Positions 9,880 to 64,000 of a DNA stretch of 64,000 bases are shown here, one piece after another. The notes under the pieces are model-generated. The model was not told where the DNA came from. It did not search any database and saw nothing but the letters and a program-made list of their open reading frames with translations. Position 1 is the first letter of the stretch, and every line of letters starts with the position of its first letter. Source of the stretch: an uncultured Acidobacteriota bacterium (GTDB lineage: Bacteria; Acidobacteriota; UBA6911); contig CAZPHK010000001.1 of assembly GCA_964586015.1 (NCBI GenBank), positions 25,081 through 89,080 of the forward strand. Direction: 5' to 3'. Made by a program: the position numbers and the translations under genes.

Positions 9880-10967
9880 AATCTCTCGCCCTTTTTTTCA
9901 TAATACTCGTCGCTGCCGTACCCGCAATCGCACAAATTGAACCTGTTTCCGATAATTACTTCCCGGCGGACCGCGAGTTCGGGGAATTTAAAAGCATCGG
10001 GTCTGAGAACCGTATCGCTGATCCCGGCGGCTTAACCGGCATCAAAAACGGAAAACTGTTCGCATCCGTTGGCTTCGACAGTTACGCACAACGCACATAT
10101 AATCTGGAAAATTCAAAAACCCTTTCCATAGAAATTGTATCTCTCATCGATGCCCGAGCCGCGTTTTCACTGCTCACTCTTCTCAGGACAACCGGCATTC
10201 AAGAAGGTCCTCCCGGAGATGAATTCGCTTCCGATTCCGGCCGCATAATTTTTTGCCACGGTCGGAGATTTGTTCGCATCATGGGAGATGAAATCCCCGA
10301 CGCGCTGATCCAACGTGCAGCCGTCTCGGTCAGCAACCGGATGGGTAAGCCCGACTATAAAATTCCCTCCCTGATTTCACTTTTTCCTAAAACCGGCCTG
10401 GATATTTCGACCCTCCGGTATTTCCCCGGAACGAAAGCTTTTGAATCTTTTGACCGGAAAACTTCGGACGGTATAATTCCTATTCTTTACGATATGGAGA
10501 TCGCCCGGGCCCGTTTTTCCGTTAAAAATCAGTCGGGCACTCTCTTCCTTTTGAAATTTCCCACGCACCAGGTTGCCGAAGAGTATTTCACGGAAATCTC
10601 CGAAACGGCACACTCCCATGATGGCGACGACAACACCTACCTCCGCAGAATAGGCCCTTTGATGTGCGTGCTCGAAGGCTCATTCAGCCCGGGCACCGCG
10701 AACGATATACTCAAACCCGTTCGCTACAGTTATACCGTCCAGTGGATTTACAATAAAAATTCCAAACCCACAACGGTATGGGGAATTCCCGTCAGCATCC
10801 TCGGTTCCACCGTGCTGGCGTTTTTTATTGTCGTAGTGACTTGCGGTCTGTCTGTTCTGGCCGGTGTCGGACTCGCCGCATGCAGGCTGATGTTGCGTCG
10901 ATTATTTCCTAAAAACCCTTTGGATAATCCAAAAAGAACCGAAATAACCAGGTTGAAACTAAAATGA
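9876..10967 (+). CDS. hypothetical exported protein with C-terminal membrane anchor
   Basis: 363 aa. N-terminal signal peptide MKSLALFFIILVAAVPAIAQ and a C-terminal hydrophobic helix VLAFFIVVVTCGLSVLAGVGLAA. No recognisable domain. Overlaps the amidase stop and the crp-like start by 4 bp each, so it is probably translationally coupled. Confidence 0.35.
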   Translation: MKSLALFFIILVAAVPAIAQIEPVSDNYFPADREFGEFKSIGSENRIADPGGLTGIKNGKLFASVGFDSYAQRTYNLENSKTLSIEIVSLIDARAAFSLLTLLRTTGIQEGPPGDEFASDSGRIIFCHGRRFVRIMGDEIPDALIQRAAVSVSNRMGKPDYKIPSLISLFPKTGLDISTLRYFPGTKAFESFDRKTSDGIIPILYDMEIARARFSVKNQSGTLFLLKFPTHQVAEEYFTEISETAHSHDGDDNTYLRRIGPLMCVLEGSFSPGTANDILKPVRYSYTVQWIYNKNSKPTTVWGIPVSILGSTVLAFFIVVVTCGLSVLAGVGLAACRLMLRRLFPKNPLDNPKRTEITRLKLK

Positions 10968-43232: not shown

Positions 43233-43308
<76 letters not shown>

Positions 43309-43440: not shown

Positions 43441-44928
43441 TTATGCTTCCCCGCCTTTCTGAATAATGACGGGATTCGGAACGGGAACATTCAAATGGGG
43501 CAGCAGGGAGGATTCCATCGTATATACCGCCTCCAACAAACTGCTCCGCACCTTGTCGTCGCGTTCAATGGCAGTATGCTCCTTCAAGGCTTTCAGGGAC
43601 TCTTCGGATCTAATGGAAGCCAGGGCTCGAACCGAGGCCTGCCTTAAAACGGTCATTTCGTGATTCAAATACCGGCGGATATGCGGAATTGCCTTTTCCT
43701 TCCCGGTCTGGGCCAGAGGTATCAATGCGATAAGAGCGCTCTGGGGATGTGTCTCAATGTACTTGAGAATTTCTTCGAATGCCTCGCCGGCTCCGATTTT
43801 TCCCAGAGCCTCTATTGCACACTCGGCATGAAACGGGCTTCTTAAATCGTTCATAATCAATGGAGTCGCGGAAGAAATCTTCAATTCGCCCAGTACCCTT
43901 ATCAATCCCCATCGCACACGGTCGTTTTCCCCGGAATATAGCTTTAACACGGCTTTTACCTCGGACGATTCGATTGTATCCACCATATCCCGAACAGCAG
44001 CGAGCCGTTCCTTTGTTGTTCCGGTTCTCATTGTATAAAGCCAGGATTCGATCCTGTCCGTTTTTTCATTCCAGATGTTCCTGGTTTCATCAGACGCCGT
44101 GTGCACATTCGTCCGACTGGATACAAAAACGCTGTCTGTTTCTTCAAATTCTTTGCACTTTTCCAGTTCATGCTTCAGTATACCGGCATTTGCGAACCTG
44201 CCACCCGGCTTGATTGCAAGGCATTTTTCAAGTATCTGTTGAAGCAATTCAGGGAATTCATGTAACACGTCCTGCGGCCAGGGAAACTTGCCCAAAGGGG
44301 GAAATCCCATCAACATTTCGTACAGTATCGCTCCTAAAGCGTATACATCGGCCCTTTGATCGATTCTTTTCGTATCAAAGCGCTGTTCCGGAGCAAGATA
44401 GGCAATGGTTCCGAGAATCTCTCCGGACTGCGTCAGCGCACTTTTTTCCACCGCAAGGGTTTTCGCTATTCCGAAATCGGAGACCACCGGATTCCCTTCA
44501 GCGTCGAGCAGGATATTCGAAGGCTTCAGGTCCCTGTGGATAACCCCTCTGTCGTGGGCATGTGCCATGGCGGCGCAAATGCGCAAAAAGAGTTCTACTG
44601 CGGGCGAAAAATTGACCCTTTCCCGACGCATGTTTTGCGCAAGGTTTCCTCCCGGCATATATTCCATCGAATAGAAATAACAGTCTTCGAGGATTCCGTT
44701 GTCATAAATTTTTATAATGCCGGGGTGGGAAAGACCCCCTATAATTTCGATTTCACGCAGGAAACGGGTGTAATCCGAAGGATATTTCGTCACCCTTTTT
44801 TTGAGAATTTTATAGCCACGTTTCTGGCGCGTCCTGGGATCTAATGCCAGGTAGACATCGGACATTCCCCCCGAACCGATTTTCTCTACGAGATAAAAGC
44901 TGCCTATTTTCCTTCGCAACATTCCCAT
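43441..44928 (-). CDS. Ser/Thr protein kinase with C-terminal HEAT-like repeats
   Basis: 495 aa. Kinase motifs GSGGMSDVY, VIHRDLKPSNILL, DFGIAK, APE. The C-terminal half is helical repeats typical of HEAT or PBS-lyase repeats. Confidence 0.85.
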   Translation of the reverse strand: MGMLRRKIGSFYLVEKIGSGGMSDVYLALDPRTRQKRGYKILKKRVTKYPSDYTRFLREIEIIGGLSHPGIIKIYDNGILEDCYFYSMEYMPGGNLAQNMRRERVNFSPAVELFLRICAAMAHAHDRGVIHRDLKPSNILLDAEGNPVVSDFGIAKTLAVEKSALTQSGEILGTIAYLAPEQRFDTKRIDQRADVYALGAILYEMLMGFPPLGKFPWPQDVLHEFPELLQQILEKCLAIKPGGRFANAGILKHELEKCKEFEETDSVFVSSRTNVHTASDETRNIWNEKTDRIESWLYTMRTGTTKERLAAVRDMVDTIESSEVKAVLKLYSGENDRVRWGLIRVLGELKISSATPLIMNDLRSPFHAECAIEALGKIGAGEAFEEILKYIETHPQSALIALIPLAQTGKEKAIPHIRRYLNHEMTVLRQASVRALASIRSEESLKALKEHTAIERDDKVRSSLLEAVYTMESSLLPHLNVPVPNPVIIQKGGEA

Positions 44929-47613: not shown

Positions 47614-47689
47614 GGGCGCCTAGCTCAGCTGGTAGAGCACTGCGATCACACCGCAGGGGTCACAGGTTCGAGTCCTGTGGCGCCCACCA
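47614..47689 (+). tRNA. tRNA-Val (anticodon CAC)
   Basis: 76 nt: acceptor GGGCGCC/GGCGCCC, D arm GCTC-AGCTGGTA-GAGC, anticodon arm CTGCG-ATCACAC-CGCAG, T arm ACAGG-TTCGAGT-CCTGT, and an encoded CCA. Confidence 0.9.
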
Positions 47690-48481: not shown

Positions 48482-51451
48482 ATGACGATTGAGACAATCG
48501 CACATTACGAGATTCTGGAAGAGATCGGATCCGGAGGTATGGGAATAGTATACCGGGCCCGGGACACCAAACTTGGCCGGGAAGTGGCCCTGAAACTTCT
48601 GCCTGAAAAACTGGCGGACAACACCGTATATCTCCAAAGATTTCAACGCGAAGCAAGAGCGGCTTCCGCATTGAATCATCCCAATATATGCACTATTTAT
48701 GAAATCGGGGAACATCAGGGCCGCCATTATATCGCGATGGAACTCCTGGAAGGGAGAACCCTGCGAAGTATGATGCAGGGGAAACCGCTTCCCGTTGAAC
48801 AAGTTGTTCATACGGCTCTGCAGATCGCGGACGCACTGGAGGCGGCGCATTCAAAAAGAATCGTTCACCGCGACATCAAGCCCGCCAATATTTTCGTAAC
48901 CCACAGGGGACACATCAAAATTCTGGATTTCGGCCTGGCCAAATGGGCTGCCCCGAATCCGGATCTTCCCGAATCGAAACCCGACAATCCCGGTTTAAAA
49001 ATGAGCGATATCACCTCCGAATACATAAGTGCCCCTCAGGTAACGATAGGAACGCTGCCCTATATGTCGCCCGAACAGGCTCTGGGAGAAGAACTGGATA
49101 CCCGGACCGACCTTTTTTCTCTGGGAACCTTGCTCTATGAACTTTTGACCGGCACCGCGGCTTTTAAAGGAGTCCATCCCCCGGTTCTTTTCCAGGAAAT
49201 TCTGACCAAAAACCCCATACCATCCATGCAACTGAATAAGGAAATCCCTCCCAAACTGGAGGATATTGTTTCCAGGTTGATGGAAAAGGATCGCGATCTT
49301 CGCTACCAGACAGCGGCCGATCTATGCGCCGACCTGAAAAGAGTGAAAAGGGATATGGAGGTTAAACACTCCATATCCGGAATGGCTTCGGCGAGTACCG
49401 TACGTTCATGGCATCCCGACAGTCTGCAGCATGTAAGAGCGGCATCTCCGGCCAAAGAGATCGGCAGACTTCGGAACATCAAATTCATTCGCTCCTTGCG
49501 AAAGCGAAAAGCAGTAGTGGCATCGGCGTTCGTTATAGTCCTGATTCTCGCAGGCATTTTCATATTTCCCCTGAGAGGCTCCAACTATTATCCCTGTATA
49601 GAATTCCTGAATTTTGAAGGAGGATCCGAATCCGTAGACGCCCAACTGGTCGGGTTTATACTAAAAAGAATACTGTCTCAATTTCCCGAAGTTACGGTGG
49701 TGGACAGCGAGGAATTCGACTACCTGACAAAAATTGAAAGAAACCGAAGGCAGGAGGAACGATCGAAAGTACACGGTCTGTCAAAGTTAAGAAACCTGTT
49801 GAGTTGGCAAAGAGAAACGCGTGAGCCGGCTATGACCGTTTCCGGCGAGGTAAGGGATTCCCTCGGACGGCTGGAGCTTATACTGACGTGCAAAATCAGG
49901 GGAGAAAACGAGATATTAAGAAAACGACTCCGCGGCGTGGATGAATTCCTGAATAAGGGGATCGATGAATTAATCAAAGATATGCTGCTGCGTTACGATC
50001 CGAAACTTGCAGAACGGCACATTACCGGGAGACAGCCCGATTACCGGCCGGCGGTCCAGCTCCTGTCCTCCAGTTGGGACTCATTGCGGCACTACTACCA
50101 GGGAGCCCGGGCATGGGAGCGCCTCGACATGAACACGTCGGAGCGCGAACTTCAAGCGGCCCTTGAAATTGATCCCCGCTTTGCCGATGCCCACCGCATA
50201 CTGGGAGAAGTGCGCGTTTTTCAGAATCAGTGGGATGCCGCACAATCGGAAATACTGGAAGCGCGCAAGGAATCAGGGGCGCTTACCGAGGTCGATCAGT
50301 TGCGAGTTGAAGCGCTTCTAGCCCGAGTATTCCTCAAGCCTTTTGCTGAAAGAGTCTATCTTCAAAAACTGATCGATCTTCAGCCATACAAAAAAGAATA
50401 TTTATATGAGCTTGCGGAGTCCTACTTTCATACGGCGGATGTTGAAGACGCCATCATTAAGTACCAGGACGCTCTGAGCCTCAACAACAAATATGAAAAA
50501 GCATACAATCATCTCGCCTATTGTTATTCCTGGCTCGGAGATCACGAACGGGCTCTGGAAACCTGTATGCGCTATCTGGAACTGGACGGGACTGCCAACG
50601 CCTATGACAGCATGGGAGACATCTACATGCAGGCGGGCGATTACGCCAAAGCCGAAGAAATGAAGCTGAAGGCGATCGACCTCGATCCGCAGATGTACTA
50701 TGCCAGCCGGATCCTGGCATATATCGACATGTTGCGCGGACGCAATCGGGCCGCGGAGAAACGACTGCTGTCGCTGCTTTCCTCCACCGAGGACAATACA
50801 CAGATAGCGCAATATTATGCGGCCCTGGCTTTTTTATATTACAGAAAAGGAGAGTTACAGCGCGGGCAGGACATGTGCCGACAGGGATTGAAACTTATCG
50901 GATCTTTTCAGAACGATGCCCCCATTGAAGAATTGATCTGGATGAACGGGTTAATCGAACTTGAAAGAAACAACATTCCCGCCGCCCGGCAGGCGCTGAA
51001 ACATTTAAATGAAATTCTCGAAATCAATAACATCAACAACCAGAACTACAAGCAGCCGCTCAAATTCTATCTGCATCTTTCGGCCCTGATTTTCGCTCAT
51101 GAAGGCAAGGTTCAGGAGGCAAACGAAAAAATCGCGGATATCGAATGGATAAAAGAAAAGCTGGGCTACTGGAGCACCGCGTACGATTACGCATTCTTTT
51201 TTGATGCCATCGGACAAATATACGAAACGCTGCATCAGATGGGAGATGCCGAGAGATCCTACCGGGAGGCCCTGTCCTATAACTCGCACTACGCGCTGGC
51301 CCGCTTTCATCTTGCCCGCCTTCTTGAAGGACAAGGCAGCATGGAAGATGCCCGCTTCGAACTGGAACTGTTTCTTGAGGACTGGAAAGAAGCGGATCCC
51401 GATGTGCGCGAACTGGTTGAAGCCCGTACAATTCTGAATTCCGGCCGATAA
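48482..51451 (+). CDS. Ser/Thr protein kinase fused to a large TPR-repeat domain, with a central TM segment
   Basis: 989 aa. Kinase motifs [35 protein letters not shown] helix ([17 protein letters not shown]) is followed by about 600 aa of TPR-like repeats. Confidence 0.85.
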
Positions 51452-58205: not shown

Positions 58206-58217
58206 GTAAATTCTTCA

Positions 58218-59372
58218 TTATTCAATCATGCTGCGAATCCGCTGCGCCGCGGCCACATCTCCGCCACATTGGATGGACTCGGCCGCTTCCGGACAATCCC
58301 GGATACGGTCGATGCACGGCAAAAGATTCCCCCGATACAGGTCGGATGCCGGAATATGCGTATGTTTCAGATATTTCCTGATTGCGGATTCCAGGACGGC
58401 AAACTCGGGAAAATCACTGCGTTCGGCATAAATCAACGGTTTGCGGTTCACAATACAGTCCGATACAATTCCGAATCCCGGTTTTGAAATAACCGCATCC
58501 ACGGAAGCGATAATATCGGAAAAAGGCACCTGTTCCCGGCGCAGAGCGTGAGTGTTCCGGAGGTCCCACGCCAGCGGATGGACCGTAAAAAACTCGCAGC
58601 CCTCTATTTTTTCAACCCGATCGAGAGCATCCCGGCTCCAGTCGAGGCTGGTAAAAGAGAGCAGGATCCACTTTCTGCCCGTATCGCAGCCGGCGATTCC
58701 GGCTATTTCATCCCGCCTGGATTTTCCCGGGGACGCGACAAGGGGAATGTCCTCGATGAAGGGAAACGCCTCCATTACGTCGCTGAACGGAAGCCTTAAA
58801 AGCAGATCCGTCTTCCCGTAAGCATCACGTATTTTTTTAACGATGCGCTTCCAACGGGCGTCCCGGCCGGTGAAGCCGGAGTAGATCCAGTCCCACCCGA
58901 AATTGCCGATCGCCATTCGCGGGATGCCCGCTTTCGCGGCGGCCGCCAAAGGAAGATCCGGAATATCGCAGATCGTCAGGACAGCCTTCATTTGTTCCAG
59001 ATATCGGGATTCCCGTTCGATCAGTTCTTCGCGCCGATCATAAAGCCGTTCGAGCCGGACCAGGGTGGAAGGAACGTCAACCCGGATGGAGTCTATCTGC
59101 ACCATTCCGATATCGAAAGCGCCCGGGCGGAGGCGGTTTTGCACGTTGCTGATGCGGTTGAACAGAAACTCGGGGGGCAAAACGCTCACGACCTCGACGG
59201 TCAAATGCGGATACAGCCGGTTCAGAGCCCTGATAATGTCGCAGGCTCGAACTCCGTGCCCGTAACCGTGAGCGCTGACGTAATACGCTATGACGTTTTT
59301 TTTGGCCGTTGTCACTATGAATGCGAGCGATGCGCCTCCAGCCAGCGTTCGGCCCTTAACGCGGCCATGCAC
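58218..59372 (-). CDS. glycosyltransferase-like protein (GT1/GT28, MurG-like fold; MJ1255-type family), start uncertain
   Basis: Has the YVSAHGYGHGVR G-loop motif characteristic of this glycosyltransferase family. The track ORF begins at a GTG and overlaps the trxB 3' end by 58 bp, so the true start is probably downstream. Confidence 0.4.
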   Translation of the reverse strand: MHGRVKGRTLAGGASLAFIVTTAKKNVIAYYVSAHGYGHGVRACDIIRALNRLYPHLTVEVVSVLPPEFLFNRISNVQNRLRPGAFDIGMVQIDSIRVDVPSTLVRLERLYDRREELIERESRYLEQMKAVLTICDIPDLPLAAAAKAGIPRMAIGNFGWDWIYSGFTGRDARWKRIVKKIRDAYGKTDLLLRLPFSDVMEAFPFIEDIPLVASPGKSRRDEIAGIAGCDTGRKWILLSFTSLDWSRDALDRVEKIEGCEFFTVHPLAWDLRNTHALRREQVPFSDIIASVDAVISKPGFGIVSDCIVNRKPLIYAERSDFPEFAVLESAIRKYLKHTHIPASDLYRGNLLPCIDRIRDCPEAAESIQCGGDVAAAQRIRSMIE

Positions 59373-60256
59373 CCGAAACCCGCCGCCGTAATGGCCTGGC
59401 GATAGTAACGGTCATGAACGTCGCCGGCGGCAAAAACTCCATCCATGCTGGTTTCAACACCGTTTCGCGCCACAATGTATCCCTGATCATCCAGGTCGAC
59501 GACGCCTCGGAGGAATTCCGTATTCGGATGGTGCCCGATTCCCATAAAGACGCCGGAAACGGACTCCACTCTCTCCTCTCCTGTCACAATGTTTTTAAGC
59601 CTGACTGCCTTCAGGACTTCATCGCCCTCGTACCCCGTCACAACCGTATTCCAAAGGAACCGGATCTTCGGACTGGACCGGGCCCGATCCTGCATGATCT
59701 TGCTGGCCCTTAATTCGTCGCGCCTGTGTACAATTGTCACCTTCGCGACATGATGCGCCAGGGTCAAGGCTTCCTCCAGGGCCGAATCGCCGCCGCCGAC
59801 CACCATAACTTCCTGGTTTCGGAAGAACATGCCGTCGCAGACGGCGCACGCGGAAAGCCCGCGGTTTCGAAATTTTTCCTCATCGGGAAGCTCCAGCCAT
59901 CTTGCGTTTGCGCCCGTTGCAATAATCACCGAAAGGGATTCGTGCCACCCCGATTGAGATCGGATCCGGAAAGGACCTCCGGGTTTGAAATCCACTTCCA
60001 GCGCGTCTTCCTCAATCATTTCCGTCTTGAAGCGCAACGCCTGCTTTTTCATCTGCTCCATCAAGTCCGGTCCCTGAATTCCCTCTGGGAATCCGGGGAA
60101 ATTCTCGACATCGGTGGTGAACATGAGCTGCCCCCCGGGCATCTGCTGTCCCGCGGGTTCGGAAGCCAGAATAATCGGAGAAAGGTTGGCGCGCGCGGCA
60201 TAGATAGCCGCGGTGTATCCCGCCGGTCCTGATCCAATGATAACGACATTGTGCAT
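59315..60256 (-). CDS. trxB: thioredoxin-disulfide reductase
   Basis: 313 aa. FAD motif VIIGSGPAGYTAA, redox-active CAVCDG, NADPH motif VVGGGDSALEEA. Confidence 0.9.
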   Translation of the reverse strand: MHNVVIIGSGPAGYTAAIYAARANLSPIILASEPAGQQMPGGQLMFTTDVENFPGFPEGIQGPDLMEQMKKQALRFKTEMIEEDALEVDFKPGGPFRIRSQSGWHESLSVIIATGANARWLELPDEEKFRNRGLSACAVCDGMFFRNQEVMVVGGGDSALEEALTLAHHVAKVTIVHRRDELRASKIMQDRARSSPKIRFLWNTVVTGYEGDEVLKAVRLKNIVTGEERVESVSGVFMGIGHHPNTEFLRGVVDLDDQGYIVARNGVETSMDGVFAAGDVHDRYYRQAITAAGFGCMAALRAERWLEAHRSHS

Positions 60257-60436
60257 AAAAGTCCCCGCTTTCTCATATGATTCGAAACGATTATATTCAA
60301 ATGCACAGGATTTTGAAGGCCTTCCGGCAATTTAATTTACTCTACCCCTGACACTCTTTCCCGGCGGTACGCTTCCCGGATGGGAAACAGTCGCGCAATG
60401 TTTTGCGCAGGATATCGGCAAGAAACCAATATACGA

Positions 60437-60450
60437 GGAAATTTCTTGCT
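60437..60450 (+). promoter_or_regulatory. possible sigma54-type -24/-12 element (GG-N9-TTGC) upstream of tssK
   Basis: aGGAAATTTCTTGCt against the consensus TGGCACG-N4-TTGCW. The GG/GC spacing is correct but the rest is a weak match. About 75 bp upstream of the tssK ATG. Confidence 0.25.
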
Positions 60451-60523
60451 CCTCAATAGGAGTGGAGCGTATAGTAAACTACATTAAATGTAATAATTTA
60501 AGATATTTGCTTGAGGGGGGCTT

Positions 60524-61894
60524 ATGCCGGTATTTTCGAAGATCCTATGGTCTGAGGGTATGTTTCTTTCTCCTCATCATTTTCAGCAGTGGGAGGAATA
60601 TCAGGAACAAATCCTGCAATACCGTCTGAAGTCCCTCGTTCCATTCAGCTGGGGCCTTACCGAACTTGAAATCAACCGCGAAGGCCTCGCCAACGGACAC
60701 CTCTCCATTCTGAAATGCAGCGGCCTGTTTCCGGGAGGCACCGTCTTTAAAATGCCGGACGCCGATGAAAGGATTCCGGCCCGGTTTTTCAAGGATTTTC
60801 TCGATCCATCCAAGCAGTTTCTGGATGTCTTCCTGGCTTTGCCTGCAAAAAATCCGACCGCCGGGAACCTCACCGTCGATTCCGGGGATTCTTCGCAACC
60901 TACACGTTATCGAAAGGATTCCATCAATGTTGTAGATATAAACACTGGAGAAAATGAGCGCGAAATACTCATCGCAAAAAATAATCTGAATCTGCTTTTC
61001 GGCGGAGAGTCCCTCGGCAACTACGACTTTATTCAGATTGCAAGACTGAAACAGGAAGGCGACGGAATTGCCGTACTGGACGACACCTATATTCCACCGT
61101 GCCTTCATATCGCCTGTTCTCCCGTATTGATGAATATTGTTCGCCGGCTGTCGGAAGTGCTTCACGCAAAAAGTGCCTCCCTTTGCGAGGAGAGAAGCCA
61201 AAGGACCGCGGGAATAGTGGAATTCAGCAGTTCCGACCTGGGTAACTTCTGGCTCCTTCACACAGTGAACTCATATATGCCTGTTATCGATCACTTCAAT
61301 CGAGCCCCTCAGGCACACCCGGAGACCCTTTTCACATCGCTGGCTCAACTCGCCGGGGCATTAACCACGTTCTCTCCCGACATACGGCCCGGCGATCTGC
61401 CCGGGTATGATCACAACAATCTCTCCAAGACATTTCTGGGGATGGAAGAATCCATTCAGGAACTCCTCAAGGCGGTCGTTCCCACCGGTGCCATACAGAT
61501 CCCGCTTCAGAAAGAAAGCGATTCCAAGTTCACGGCCAGTATCGCGTCCGACCAGCTGCTAGCCGACTCGCAGATTTTTCTCGCGGCCAAAGCCGATCTG
61601 CCGGACAATCATCTCATCGAAGAGCTGCCGAGCCAGGCCAAGATCAGCTCTACCGATCAGATCAACTCCCTGCTTGGGCTGGCCCTGCCGGGAGTCCGGC
61701 TTAAACACCGTCCCGTTCCCCCGTCACCGCTCAGGGTAAAACTTGGCTATCAGTACTTTCGTTTTGAAGAGCTTGAAGATCCGGAAAGCCGCAAACACTG
61801 GGACGCGATCTGCAGGTCACGAACCCTGGCTATCCGGGTGCCGGGACAGCGATTCCCCGGGTTGAAACTTGAACTCTGGTCCATAAAAGAATAG
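60524..61894 (+). CDS. tssK: type VI secretion system baseplate protein TssK (ImpJ/VasE)
   Basis: 456 aa. The N-terminus ILWSEGMFLSPHHFQQWEEY matches the hallmark TssK start (W.EG.FL.PQHFQQ). The size and its position before the DotU and IcmF homologues agree. Confidence 0.8.
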   Translation: MPVFSKILWSEGMFLSPHHFQQWEEYQEQILQYRLKSLVPFSWGLTELEINREGLANGHLSILKCSGLFPGGTVFKMPDADERIPARFFKDFLDPSKQFLDVFLALPAKNPTAGNLTVDSGDSSQPTRYRKDSINVVDINTGENEREILIAKNNLNLLFGGESLGNYDFIQIARLKQEGDGIAVLDDTYIPPCLHIACSPVLMNIVRRLSEVLHAKSASLCEERSQRTAGIVEFSSSDLGNFWLLHTVNSYMPVIDHFNRAPQAHPETLFTSLAQLAGALTTFSPDIRPGDLPGYDHNNLSKTFLGMEESIQELLKAVVPTGAIQIPLQKESDSKFTASIASDQLLADSQIFLAAKADLPDNHLIEELPSQAKISSTDQINSLLGLALPGVRLKHRPVPPSPLRVKLGYQYFRFEELEDPESRKHWDAICRSRTLAIRVPGQRFPGLKLELWSIKE

Positions 61895-61912
61895 GCGTTT
61901 TTCTTAGGAGTT

Positions 61913-62638
61913 TTGATGGCAGAATCTCACAAAAAGCCAAACCTTTCCGAGCTGGCCGGTGATATTTTTCTCCTGGTTCTTGGATTTCGCGAAAGAGCGG
62001 ATTCTTTCGAATTTGATACTCTGTACCAGGGAGTAACGACACTGTTTAAAGAGTTTGACCAGAAGGCGAAAGCTCTGAAACTGGATCCTGACGATATCAC
62101 CGATTCCAAGTATGCGCTTGCGGCCTTCGTGGACGAAGCAATACTCCGCTCGCAGTGGCCCGGCCGAGAGCAGTGGGCCGATAATCCGCTGCAGCTTCAA
62201 TTGTTCGAAACTTACCTTGCCGGCGAAGGTTTCTTCGAAAAACTGGAAATCCTCAGGACACGGGGCGAATCCGCGGCCGACGTTCTTGAGATCTATTACC
62301 TGTGCCTGGTTCTGGGTTTTGAAGGCAAATACGGCATAGAGGGGACCGAGCGCCTTTCCGCTCTCGCAAAACTGATACATGATGAACTGGGACGGTACAA
62401 ACCAATGAATCTGGAGGGAGTGTCCCCGCACTGGAAAGTTGTGGACGGCCCATCGCACGAAACGAGCAAACTGCCTCGATGGCTGATCTACACGTGCGCG
62501 GCCGTTATAATTCTATGCGTTTTATTTTACATAGGATTTTTCATCAGCATCCGGTCGAATGCCGGGGACATACAGGACAATCAGGCAACTGCACTGCATA
62601 CGCAGACAATGAAACAGAATAGGTCGATTTTATGTTGA
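61913..62638 (+). CDS. tssL: type VI secretion system protein TssL (DotU/IcmH family)
   Basis: 241 aa. Cytoplasmic helical domain of about 190 aa, then a single C-terminal TM helix (WLIYTCAAVIILCVLFYIGFFI). Placed between tssK and tssM. Confidence 0.65.
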   Translation: MMAESHKKPNLSELAGDIFLLVLGFRERADSFEFDTLYQGVTTLFKEFDQKAKALKLDPDDITDSKYALAAFVDEAILRSQWPGREQWADNPLQLQLFETYLAGEGFFEKLEILRTRGESAADVLEIYYLCLVLGFEGKYGIEGTERLSALAKLIHDELGRYKPMNLEGVSPHWKVVDGPSHETSKLPRWLIYTCAAVIILCVLFYIGFFISIRSNAGDIQDNQATALHTQTMKQNRSILC

Positions 62639-64000
62639 AGCGCTTCAGTCCGTTCACACGAATGTTTATTCTTGCCGGCATTCCCGCACTGATTGCAATA
62701 TTGCTGGTCTGGTTTCTTGGACCCCGTTTCGGGCTTACCCGGTTCACTATCGTAATATTAATAGTGGCGATTCTCTTCCTCCTGATAATTATTCTAGCCT
62801 TACAGTATCTGCTTGGAAGAATTAAAGCCTCACGTTCAACCGGTTCCTCAGATTCTGAATATGTTTCCGAACGTTCGCTGGCGGGATCGGATGACGTTGC
62901 GGTTCTGGGTGATCGTCTGGACAGGGCGATTCGGTGGCTGAAAAAATCAAAACTGGCGGAAACAGTCCGGGATGCGGTCTACGATCTTCCTTGGTATCTT
63001 CTTATAGGGGGGGAAGCCTCAGGAAAATCAACTCTGATTGTTCAGTCTGGTTTCAATTTCCCTTATACGGATCCCAAGAAAACTGCCGGGAAGCTGGACT
63101 TCGGCCCAACCATAGATTGCGATCTGTGGATTGCCAACGAAGCATTGTTTGTCGATCCTTCGGGCAAATCTTTTTCGGAAGACCGCAATTTAACCCAATG
63201 CCTGAACATGTTGCGGCAGTTGAAACAACGCCGGCAGCAAAAACCGATTGACGGGATCATTCTCGTCGTGGATACAGCCAGACTTTTCAGCCTGAACGAT
63301 GCGGCTGTCAGAGACAAGGCCAATAAGCTGCGTACTTTCCTGGACATGACCATGCAGGAGTTCGGGATGGTCATTCCCATCTATCTCCTTTTTAATAAAG
63401 CCGACCTGGTTGAAGGTTTTCAGGAATTTTTCAATAAACCGGCCTTTAGGGAAAACCAGCTCCTTGGAGCTACTTTTACCCGGGAACAATTCGAGACTCA
63501 GCATCCTGAAGATGCGTTCCAGCAGGAGTTTGAACAGATCTGCCAGTCGGCCCGGTCTTTCGAAATTGCCCGACTGATCACTGAATCCAAGCGGGATCGT
63601 GAAAAGACCTTTCCCTTCCACAAACAGCTCTCATTGATGAAGAATAGGCTTTCTGAGTTCGTCGGGATTCTATTTCAGCACAGCCAGTTCCGTGAAAAAC
63701 CCCTCTTTCGAGGTTTTTATTTTACAAGCGGCGTTCAGGGAGAGCGTCCTCTCGATTTCGTAGCCGACATGCTTAAATCCAAAACCGGGCTGCCGGTAGC
63801 CGAGGAAGCCGAAAGACCCCGCAGAACGGATCGTTACTTCATCAGAACCCTGTTGACTCAGGTGATACTGCCCGACAGAAATCTCGCGGGTCTGTCCAAA
63901 GCGGCCAGGCGCCGTCGCCGGCTTACGCGGATGATACTGGCCGGCGCAGCGGGCATATTACTGCCCGTTATTATACTGCTGTGCTTCTGGGGCGCGTACA
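62632..64000 (+). CDS. tssM: type VI secretion system membrane protein TssM (IcmF), N-terminal part; it runs off the window end
   Basis: ATG at 62632 overlapping the tssL stop. N-terminal TM helices, then Walker A GGEASGKST and the IcmF-like region GIILVVDTARL...LLFNKADL. Absent from the ORF track because it is incomplete. Confidence 0.75.
   Translation, partial: MLKRFSPFTRMFILAGIPALIAILLVWFLGPRFGLTRFTIVILIVAILFLLIIILALQYLLGRIKASRSTGSSDSEYVSERSLAGSDDVAVLGDRLDRAIRWLKKSKLAETVRDAVYDLPWYLLIGGEASGKSTLIVQSGFNFPYTDPKKTAGKLDFGPTIDCDLWIANEALFVDPSGKSFSEDRNLTQCLNMLRQLKQRRQQKPIDGIILVVDTARLFSLNDAAVRDKANKLRTFLDMTMQEFGMVIPIYLLFNKADLVEGFQEFFNKPAFRENQLLGATFTREQFETQHPEDAFQQEFEQICQSARSFEIARLITESKRDREKTFPFHKQLSLMKNRLSEFVGILFQHSQFREKPLFRGFYFTSGVQGERPLDFVADMLKSKTGLPVAEEAERPRRTDRYFIRTLLTQVILPDRNLAGLSKAARRRRRLTRMILAGAAGILLPVIILLCFWGAY

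What the first reader, a model, noticed from the sequence alone, without database searches (positions are those of the whole stretch)
60437..64000. Start of a type VI secretion system locus (tssK-tssL-tssM) with a possible sigma54 promoter
The N-terminal TssK hallmark (ILWSEGMFLSPHHFQQ), a DotU-like protein with a single C-terminal TM, and an IcmF-like protein with N-terminal TMs and a Walker A motif appear in the canonical order with overlapping stop and start codons. The locus begins abruptly after trxB and continues beyond the window, so the rest (tssA-J, hcp, vgrG, clpV and effectors) should lie downstream. TssL here appears to lack a peptidoglycan-binding extension. A GG-N9-TTGC element about 75 bp upstream of tssK is weakly sigma54-like, and T6SS loci are often RpoN and bEBP controlled. 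This is a known system, but it is the only macromolecular weapon locus in the window.
Basis: partly seen in the sequence, partly recalled or inferred. Interest (0 to 1): 0.55.

Follow-up and report, generated by a model that had tools for sequence, protein, structure and literature searches.

The report
Start of an acidobacterial T6SS cluster
The end of this window holds the first three genes (tssK, tssL, tssM) of an ordinary type VI secretion system from an uncultured acidobacterium. The suggested sigma-54 promoter upstream does not hold up.

Summary
Window 60524-61894 encodes TssK, 61916-62638 encodes a short TssL/DotU, and 62632-64000 encodes the first 456 residues of TssM. All three give very strong HMM matches. 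The stated details hold: the N-terminal TssK motif, one C-terminal TM in TssL with no peptidoglycan-binding domain, and TMs plus a Walker A in TssM. Only tssL/tssM overlap; tssK and tssL are 21 nt apart.

The source contig beyond the window could not be retrieved. Metagenome contigs about 91% identical in DNA, with the same trxB-tssK junction, continue with tssA-tssB-tssC-hcp-tssE-tssF. Relatives at 77-79% TssK identity add tssG, clpV, vgrG, DUF2169/pentapeptide, DUF3540 and a PAAR-like gene.

The sigma-54 idea is not supported:
- The element is GG-N7-TTGC, one base short of the canonical spacing.
- It has 4 of 11 consensus mismatches and is no more frequent than chance.
- Its GG is not conserved in relatives.
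- No enhancer-binding-protein gene lies in the window or the related clusters.

The TTGC fits better as the -35 of a conserved TTGCTC-N18-TATAGT sigma-70-type pair.

T6SS is already known in Acidobacteria. The relatives' clusters lack tssJ and the TssM IcmF_C domain, which also has precedent. This is a new member of a known kind, of low interest.

The parts
59315..60256 (-). trxB (thioredoxin-disulfide reductase). It is the divergent left-hand neighbour that marks the edge of the T6SS cluster.
   Evidence: TIGR01292 384.1 bits against a cut-off of 343.45. The same neighbour is present in L001 and L003-L006.
60257..60523 (.). 267-bp divergent intergenic region between trxB and tssK. It presumably holds the promoters of both genes.
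   Evidence: Sequence. Alignments with relatives show a conserved block only in the 90 bp proximal to tssK.
60437..60449 (+). Judged not to be a sigma-54 promoter.
   Evidence: No hit with 3 or fewer mismatches to TGGCAC-N5-TTGCW in the intergenic region. The pattern occurs 33 times against 42 expected. The GG is not conserved in L002 or L087.
60446..60475 (+). Candidate sigma-70-type promoter: -35-like TTGCTC (60446-60451), an 18-nt spacer, and -10-like TATAGT (60470-60475). This is an inference.
   Evidence: The hexamers and spacer length are conserved while the spacer sequence varies in window, L003, L001 and L088. L092 has TTGCGA-N18-TATGAT. The site did not pass the stricter consensus scan, because the -35 matches only 3 of 6.
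60513..60520 (+). Shine-Dalgarno-like GAGGGGGG upstream of the tssK ATG.
   Evidence: Sequence. Conserved (GGGGGG or GGAGGG) in seven of the eight tssK upstream regions compared; L092 has no clear equivalent.
60524..61894 (+). tssK, the baseplate subunit that links the baseplate to the membrane complex. 456 aa.
   Evidence: PF05936 E=4e-128. TIGR03353 388.6 bits. Matches solved TssK structures 5y0e and 5m30 at E=4e-53 and 1e-49. An identical protein, P0001, exists in an NCBI contig.
61916..62638 (+). tssL (DotU family, short form). 240 aa, a cytoplasmic domain plus one C-terminal TM, with no peptidoglycan-binding domain.
   Evidence: PF09850 E=1.4e-51. TIGR03349 163 bits. TM at residues 189-211. 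Matches PDB DotU/TssL structures 6y4r, 4v3i and 3u66.
62632..64000 (+). tssM, 5' part only: 456 of about 1053 codons. It has TM1, TM2, the cytoplasmic NTPase domain and TM3, and is cut by the window end.
   Evidence: PF14331 E=1.8e-59. TIGR03348 E=6.7e-97 over model positions 7-449. The full-length orthologue in L003 is 1053 aa and scores 481 bits.
63007..63030 (+). Walker A (P-loop) GGEASGKS of TssM.
   Evidence: Regex on the translation.

Best explanation
Window 60524-64000 is the 5' end of a chromosomal type VI secretion system (T6SSi) gene cluster of an uncultured Acidobacteriota bacterium. It is a contractile, phage-tail-like weapon.

Roles of the three proteins, inferred from established T6SS biology:
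- TssK trimers are baseplate components. They dock the TssE/F/G-VgrG baseplate onto the cytoplasmic parts of the membrane complex.
- TssL is a single-TM inner-membrane protein.
- TssM is a three-TM inner-membrane protein with a cytoplasmic P-loop NTPase domain and a large periplasmic domain. TssL and TssM together form the envelope-spanning channel.

By synteny with close relatives, the cluster most probably continues as tssA-tssB-tssC-hcp-tssE-tssF-tssG-clpV-vgrG-DUF2169/pentapeptide-DUF3540-PAAR-like. It is read as one co-directional gene array starting at tssK.

Transcription most likely starts from a sigma-70-type promoter (TTGCTC-N18-TATAGT, 60446-60475) about 50 bp upstream of the tssK ATG, not from a sigma-54 promoter.

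Shown here: the identity of the three genes, their architecture, the gene content of related clusters, and the lack of a canonical sigma-54 site.
Inferred: the continuation in this genome, the promoter assignment, and the function as an interbacterial weapon.
For: - Gene identity: HMM matches far above the curated cut-offs for TssK and DotU, and a strong Pfam match for the cut TssM fragment. TssK also matches solved TssK structures.
- Architecture: the TM and Walker A features are canonical.
- Closest relative: L003-L006 are about 91% identical in DNA over window 58217-64000 with the same trxB junction. L003 continues tssA-tssB-tssC-hcp-tssE-tssF.
- More distant relatives: L002, L087/L090, L088/L089 and L007 show the same order and add tssG, clpV, vgrG, DUF2169/pentapeptide, DUF3540 and a PAAR-like gene.
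- Taxonomy: relatives are named Acidobacteria MAGs.
- Composition: the T6SS part is 50.9% GC against 50.2% for the window, and the window is a housekeeping chromosomal region.
- Promoter: TTGC(T/G)(C/A)-N18-TAT(A/G)(A/G/T)T is kept in five loci in three different genomic contexts, with a variable spacer sequence.
Against: - The source contig beyond position 64000 could not be fetched.
- A TssG search and cluster look-up did not reveal a member on the 89,907-bp source contig. Completeness in this genome therefore rests on relatives.
- The cut TssM fragment scores 325.7 bits, below the whole-protein cut-off of TIGR03348 (388.15), as expected for 40% of the protein.
- No tssJ was seen in any related cluster.
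- The full-length TssM orthologue lacks a detectable IcmF_C domain.
- The proposed -35 hexamer matches only 3 of 6 of TTGACA and was not reported by the consensus scan.
- L002, L087 and L091 lack this pair and instead share a conserved TTGACA block further upstream.
- Promoter rules in Acidobacteriota are not experimentally established.
Confidence: 0.88

Rival explanations
1. The cluster is driven by a sigma-54 (RpoN) promoter at 60437-60449 with an enhancer-binding activator. This is how the V. cholerae T6SS (VasH) is controlled.
For: GG and TTGC lie 75 bp upstream of tssK. The block GGAAATT(T/C)CTTGCTCC is conserved in window, L003 and L001, and L088 keeps a near-identical GGAAATGTCTTGCTCC. 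The relatives' sheath protein TssC is closest to those of V. cholerae and M. xanthus. That the V. cholerae system is RpoN/VasH-dependent is established knowledge, not tested here.
Against: - Spacing is GG-N9-GC, not GG-N10-GC, and sigma-54 promoters tolerate spacing changes poorly (established knowledge).
- There are 4 of 11 mismatches in the correct register and no hit with 3 or fewer mismatches in the intergenic region.
- The GG is replaced at the aligned position in L002 and L087, and L091 and L092 have no sigma-54-like site upstream of tssK.
- There is no GAFTGA-type ORF in the 64-kb window or in any related T6SS cluster, and no PF00158 protein among the called genes.
- Sigma-54-like hits in the L003 cluster are at chance level and intragenic.
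Confidence: 0.05
2. This is a degenerate or orphan tssKLM remnant. In this genome the rest of the T6SS is missing or lies on another replicon or contig.
For: The downstream sequence of the source contig is unseen. The TssG homologue search and cluster look-up found no member on the 89,907-bp contig.
Against: All three ORFs are intact and under evident conservation, with TssK 77-84% identical to relatives. In every relative with enough sequence, tssA and the following genes come directly after tssM. The negative look-up is weak evidence, because even the source's own TssK and TssL are not retrievable from that index.
Confidence: 0.06
3. The DotU/IcmF pair belongs to a type IVB (Dot/Icm) secretion system rather than a T6SS.
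For: The DotU protein also passes the NCBIfam IcmH/DotU type IVB model (68.7 bits against a cut-off of 50).
Against: TssK, which is T6SS-specific, lies directly upstream. TssM scores 325.7 bits on the T6SS model against 59.5 bits on IcmF_IVB, whose cut-off is 1000. Relatives carry sheath, Hcp, VgrG and ClpV genes.
Confidence: 0.01

Closest known systems
Canonical proteobacterial T6SSi, closest by sheath similarity to the Vibrio cholerae (VipA/VipB) and Myxococcus xanthus systems
   Same: - TssK, TssL and TssM domain architecture.
- TssM with three TMs and a Walker A NTPase.
- Relatives' TssC scores about 740 bits against M. xanthus TssC (5urw) and V. cholerae VipB (5mxn), compared with 380 bits for 5n8n (an EvpB-family sheath protein) and 267 bits for 3j9o (IglB).
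- The full set tssA-C, hcp, tssE-G, clpV and vgrG is present in relatives.
   Different: - No vasH-like sigma-54 activator in the cluster.
- No tssJ in the related clusters.
- TssM of relatives is shorter (about 1053 aa) with no IcmF_C match, covering TIGR03348 model positions 7-932 of 1168.
- All genes lie in one co-directional array that begins with tssK.
- A formal subtype (i1 to i5) was not determined by phylogeny.
TssJ-less T6SSs (Acinetobacter baumannii; Agrobacterium tumefaciens)
   Same: No tssJ in the cluster. PMC10564176 reports that Acinetobacter lacks TssJ, and that 27.5% of the non-Acinetobacter tssM+tssB genomes surveyed also lack a detected TssJ. PMC3702570 came up in the search for TssJ-less systems but was not read; that Agrobacterium lacks TssJ is from my own knowledge.
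   Different: No TsmK or TslA-like Acinetobacter-specific genes were seen in the relatives' clusters. Whether a GS-linker or an alternative outer-membrane partner exists was not tested. The absence of tssJ elsewhere in this genome is also untested.
T6SS clusters previously reported in Acidobacteria
   Same: The phylum is already listed among T6SS-bearing phyla, for example an Acidobacteriaceae plasmid T6SS classified as i4b (PMC9113992; PMC11385963).
   Different: This one is chromosomal, comes from an uncultured lineage (the closest named record is a Zodletone 'Acidobacteria bacterium' MAG), and appears closer to the V. cholerae/M. xanthus sheath type than to i4b. That last point is a best-hit inference only.

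Membership tests
Type VI secretion system (T6SSi) gene cluster | TssK baseplate subunit (PF05936 / TIGR03353) | tested here: met
   E=4e-128 with full profile coverage. 388.6 bits against a cut-off of 100. Homology to solved TssK structures.
Type VI secretion system (T6SSi) gene cluster | TssL/DotU inner-membrane subunit with a C-terminal TM | tested here: met
   PF09850 E=1.4e-51. TIGR03349 163 bits against a cut-off of 89.95. One TM at residues 189-211. The narrower 'TssL short form' model NF038239 scored below its cut-off (74 against 180).
Type VI secretion system (T6SSi) gene cluster | TssM/IcmF membrane subunit (TMs, NTPase domain, periplasmic IcmF-related domain) | tested here: met
   The window fragment gives PF14331 E=1.8e-59, three TMs and a Walker A. 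Its TIGR03348 score of 325.7 bits is below the 388.15 cut-off only because the gene is cut. The full-length orthologue in L003 scores 481 bits.
Type VI secretion system (T6SSi) gene cluster | Sheath (TssB/C), tube (Hcp), spike (VgrG), baseplate (TssA/E/F/G) and ClpV encoded with it | not testable with these tools
   These genes would lie beyond the window, and the source contig was not retrievable. In relatives the feature is met. L003 (about 91% DNA identity) has tssA, B, C, hcp, E and F. L007, L089 and L090 add tssG, clpV and vgrG, and L089 and L090 add a PAAR-like gene.
Type VI secretion system (T6SSi) gene cluster | TssJ outer-membrane lipoprotein and the TssJ-binding IcmF_C domain of TssM | tested here: inconclusive
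   No PF12790 gene in any related cluster. No PF06744 hit in L003 TssM even at E<=1. The genome outside the cluster is unseen. TssJ-less T6SSs are known (PMC10564176).
Sigma-54-dependent promoter | -24 GG and -12 GC elements with GG-N10-GC spacing (TGGCAC-N5-TTGCW) | tested here: not met
   The element is GG-N9-GC. In register it has 4 of 11 mismatches. There is no hit with 3 or fewer mismatches in 60257-60523.
Sigma-54-dependent promoter | Conservation of the -24/-12 dinucleotides in orthologous upstream regions | tested here: not met
   The GG is kept in L003, L001 and L088. It is replaced at the aligned position in L002 and L087, and L091 and L092 have no sigma-54-like site upstream of tssK.
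Sigma-54-dependent promoter | A cognate bacterial enhancer-binding protein (AAA+ with GAFTGA) and rpoN in the genome | tested here: inconclusive
   No GAFTGA-type ORF in the 64-kb window or in nine related loci. The rest of the genome is unseen.

The most novel reading that the evidence does not exclude
This acidobacterial lineage builds a T6SS with a minimal or non-canonical membrane complex. It would have a short TssL without a peptidoglycan anchor, a TssM lacking the canonical TssJ-binding C-terminal domain, and no TssJ or TagL-type partner. Its way of crossing or anchoring to the outer membrane would then differ from the E. coli TssJLM paradigm and from the Acinetobacter TsmK/GS-linker solution.
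Probability: 0.25. Interest if true: 0.4.

Novelty: new member of a known kind. Interest (0 to 1): 0.15.

Why it matters
The finding adds one more correctly annotated T6SS locus from an uncultured, probably anoxic-habitat Acidobacteriota lineage, a phylum in which T6SS is already known. It shows that these organisms probably take part in contact-dependent antagonism. The only mildly interesting points come from relatives rather than from the window. One is the apparent lack of TssJ, IcmF_C and a peptidoglycan anchor. The other is a cluster-specific conserved promoter block that travels with the cluster into different genomic contexts. It does not open or settle a long-standing question.

Tried and rejected
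1. Fetching the source contig downstream of position 64000.
- Exact look-ups of the window's TssK, the identical P0001, and TssL all returned 'not on record'.
- The one genome-contig scan gave only an 80% relative whose contig ends soon after tssA.
- The metagenome scan with TssF did not contain the 91% relatives' contigs.
- A TssG protein search plus a cluster-member look-up did not show a member on the 89,907-bp contig. This is uninformative rather than negative.

2. Sigma-54.
- Consensus scans of the window and of L003 were at chance level and found nothing in the intergenic regions.
- A GAFTGA regex found nothing.

3. Rfam scan of the whole window. It found only two tRNAs and no riboswitch or leader RNA upstream of tssK.

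4. Generic sigma-70 scan of 60200-60600. It returned three weak sites, none of them the conserved TTGCTC-N18-TATAGT pair, whose -35 is only 3 of 6. The promoter assignment therefore rests on conservation, not on consensus strength.

5. Type IVB Dot/Icm reading of DotU/IcmF. Rejected on scores and context.

6. Horizontal-transfer signal by composition. None was seen: 50.9% GC against 50.2%.

7. Structure prediction of the TssM C-terminus of L003.
Full report
**1. What is in the sequence**

ORF listing and direct reading show three co-directional + strand genes at the end of the window.
- A 456-aa ORF at 60524-61894.
- A 240-aa ORF at 61916-62638. Its ATG is preceded by AGGAG at 61906-61910. The mechanical ORF list starts it one codon earlier, at a TTG.
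- An open frame from 62632 that runs off the window at 64000 (456 codons).

Upstream, on the minus strand, lies a 313-aa gene at 59315-60256. A 267-bp divergent intergenic region separates it from the first gene.

**2. Identity of the genes**

| Gene | Pfam | NCBIfam |
|---|---|---|
| ORF 1, TssK | T6SS_VasE E=4e-128, whole profile | TIGR03353 388.6 bits, cut-off 100 |
| ORF 2, TssL | DotU E=1.4e-51 | TIGR03349 163 bits, cut-off 89.95 |
| ORF 3, TssM fragment | IcmF-related_N E=1.8e-59 | TIGR03348 E=6.7e-97, model positions 7-449 of 1168 |

- The TssM fragment scores 325.7 bits, under the whole-protein cut-off of 388.15, only because about 60% of the gene lies outside the window.
- The full-length orthologue in L003 scores 481 bits.
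- TssK also matches solved TssK structures: 5y0e at E=4e-53 and 5m30 at E=1e-49.
- TssL matches solved DotU/TssL cytoplasmic domains.
- The left neighbour is thioredoxin reductase (TIGR01292, 384 bits).

**3.

Confirmed:
- The TssK N-terminus reads MPVFSKILWSEGMFLSPHHFQQ.
- TssL has one hydrophobic segment (about residues 189-211) followed by only about 28 residues, and no domain other than DotU. It therefore has no peptidoglycan-binding extension.
- TssM has two N-terminal TMs, a Walker A GGEASGKS (residues 126-133), a Walker B-like ILVVD, and a third TM at the window end. This is the canonical TssM topology.

Corrected:
- Only tssL and tssM overlap (ATGTTGA, 7 nt). tssK and tssL are separated by 21 nt.
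- The 'GG-N9-TTGC' element is GG(60437-60438)-N7-TTGC(60446-60449).

**4. Whose genome, and what lies downstream**

An identical TssK (P0001) exists on an NCBI contig of 89,907 bp. Neither it nor the window's TssK or TssL could be located in the contig index, so the true continuation is unseen.

The closest retrievable sequences are four metagenome contigs, L003-L006.
- They are about 91% identical in DNA to window 58217-64000.
- They share the gene order MoaA, CPBP protease, HAD hydrolase, unknown 365-aa protein, trxB, then tssK.
- L003 continues tssK-tssL-tssM (1053 aa)-tssA-tssB-tssC-hcp-tssE-tssF up to the end of the fetched stretch.

The GTDB-representative hit is a Zodletone 'Acidobacteria bacterium' MAG at 80% identity with the same trxB junction.

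Relatives with 77-79% TssK identity (L002, L087/L090, L088/L089, L007) have the same order. They extend it with tssG, clpV, vgrG, a DUF2169/pentapeptide protein, a second pentapeptide protein, DUF3540 and a PAAR-like protein.

The predicted 'rest of the locus' is therefore present in every relative with enough sequence. The one exception is tssJ, which was seen in none.

Other points on context:
- The window itself is an ordinary chromosomal stretch: AlaRS, ValRS, DnaK, chorismate synthase, RsmB, an AmiC-type amidase and two Ser/Thr kinases.
- The T6SS part has the same GC content as the rest, 50.9% against 50.2%.
- Among relatives the cluster sits in at least five different neighbourhoods, always starting with tssK. 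The upstream neighbours are trxB; a Ser/Thr kinase and two small ORFs; an aldehyde dehydrogenase; a HEAT protein; an ABC-transporter solute-binding protein; and a Na/Pi cotransporter with PhoU.

**5. The promoter question**
- The canonical sigma-54 consensus TGGCAC-N5-TTGCW has no match with 3 or fewer mismatches anywhere in 60257-60523. Over the whole window such matches are at chance level, 206 against 223 expected.
In the correct register it has 4 of 11 mismatches.
- The loose pattern GG-N7-TTGC occurs 33 times in the window against 42 expected.
- Eight tssK upstream regions were aligned or scanned. The GG is present in window, L003, L001 and L088. It is replaced at the aligned position in L002 and L087. 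L091 and L092 show no sigma-54-like site. No locus has a sigma-54 match better than 3 of 11 mismatches.
- No ORF longer than 150 aa in the window or in nine related loci contains a GAFTGA-type motif. No called gene in the related clusters carries a Sigma54_activat domain.
- In the L003 cluster, sigma-54-like hits are at chance frequency and all fall inside genes.

What is conserved is TTGCTC-N18-TATAGT (TATATT in L003).
- The spacer length is constant but its sequence varies in window, L003, L001 and L088.
- L092 has TTGCGA-N18-TATGAT.
- The position is -78 to -87 relative to the ATG.

This is the signature expected of a sigma-70-family -35/-10 pair. The assignment is an inference. The -35 matches only 3 of 6 of the E. 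coli consensus, and the generic scan did not report the site. L002, L087 and L091 instead share a TTGACA block about 120 bp upstream.

**6. Comparison with known systems**

T6SS is already documented in Acidobacteria (PMC9113992, PMC11385963).

The relatives' TssC is most similar to the sheath proteins of M. xanthus (5urw) and V. cholerae (5mxn), at about 740 bits. It scores 380 bits against 5n8n (an EvpB-family sheath protein) and 267 bits against 3j9o (IglB). No formal subtype phylogeny was run.

Two deviations were seen, in relatives only.
- No tssJ lies in the cluster.
- TssM aligns to TIGR03348 only over model positions 7-932 of 1168, with no IcmF_C hit.

TssJ-less systems are well known in Acinetobacter. 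About a quarter of other tssM+tssB genomes also lack a detected TssJ (PMC10564176). This is therefore a variant with precedent, and its status in this genome is untested.

**7. Verdict**

The sigma-54 suggestion is not supported, and the 'overlapping stops and starts' claim holds for only one of the two junctions. This is a new member of a known kind, of low interest.

The most novel reading not excluded is a non-canonical, TssJ-independent membrane complex in this lineage.

Noticed in passing
window 58218-59315 (-): A conserved ORF of about 365 aa lies directly downstream of trxB on the minus strand. The mechanical ORF runs 384 aa and overlaps the 3' end of trxB. It has no Pfam or NCBIfam hit, yet it is conserved at the same place in L001 and L003-L006.
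   Followed up: partly
window 43441-44928 (-) and 48482-51451 (+): Two Ser/Thr protein kinases, one with HEAT repeats and one (989 aa) with TPR repeats, lie 9-17 kb upstream of the T6SS. In relative L002 a similar 1041-aa kinase-TPR protein lies 1.7 kb upstream of tssK. In L088 a HEAT-repeat protein is the direct neighbour. A possible link to post-translational T6SS control was not tested.
   Followed up: no
L090 8044-9906 (+): A 620-aa protein sits between clpV and vgrG in one relative's cluster, in addition to the normal tssB and tssC. It combines a VipA/TssB-like N-terminus with a VipB/TssC N-terminal domain but lacks the VipB_2 C-terminal domain. It looks like a fused sheath paralogue.
   Followed up: partly
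L089 8854-12700: In this relative (GCA_016933615.1), tssG is followed directly by vgrG. There is no clpV inside the cluster, unlike L007 and L090.
   Followed up: no
L003 12109-15270 (+); also L002, L087, L088: Full-length TssM orthologues are only 1053-1057 aa. L003 TssM aligns to the TssM model only to position 932 of 1168 with no IcmF_C domain, and the others likewise have no IcmF_C hit on record. No tssJ or peptidoglycan-binding accessory gene is present in any of these clusters.
   Followed up: partly
L088 11391-12347 (+): TssL in this relative is 318 aa, against 240 aa elsewhere. The extra C-terminal residues, about 80, have no Pfam domain.
   Followed up: no
L002 about 9930-9965; L087 about 2100-2135; L091 about 2878-2910: A second conserved block, GCTTGACA(G/T)A...TA(T/G)ATCAT, lies about 120 bp upstream of tssK in three relatives that lack the TTGCTC-N18-TATAGT pair. 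It may be an alternative promoter for the same cluster.
   Followed up: partly
Relatives L001-L003, L087, L088, L091, L092: The same tssK-first cluster, with 65-84% TssK identity, is found next to at least five different neighbour sets. This suggests relocation or transfer as a unit, even though the GC content in the window shows no anomaly.
   Followed up: partly
window 60434-60462: Two short inverted repeats overlap the conserved block: GAGGA-N10-TCCTC and CTCCT-CAAT-AGGAG. The scan flagged the first as a weak minus-strand terminator-like hairpin. It could be a regulator binding site or chance.
   Followed up: no
window 60545-61261 (-) and 61904-62458 (-): Long antisense ORFs of 238 aa and 184 aa lie inside tssK and tssL. 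They were treated as shadow ORFs of the strongly supported + strand genes.
   Followed up: no
window 43233-43305 (+) and 47614-47686 (+): Two tRNA genes are the only Rfam hits at gathering threshold in the window.
   Followed up: no
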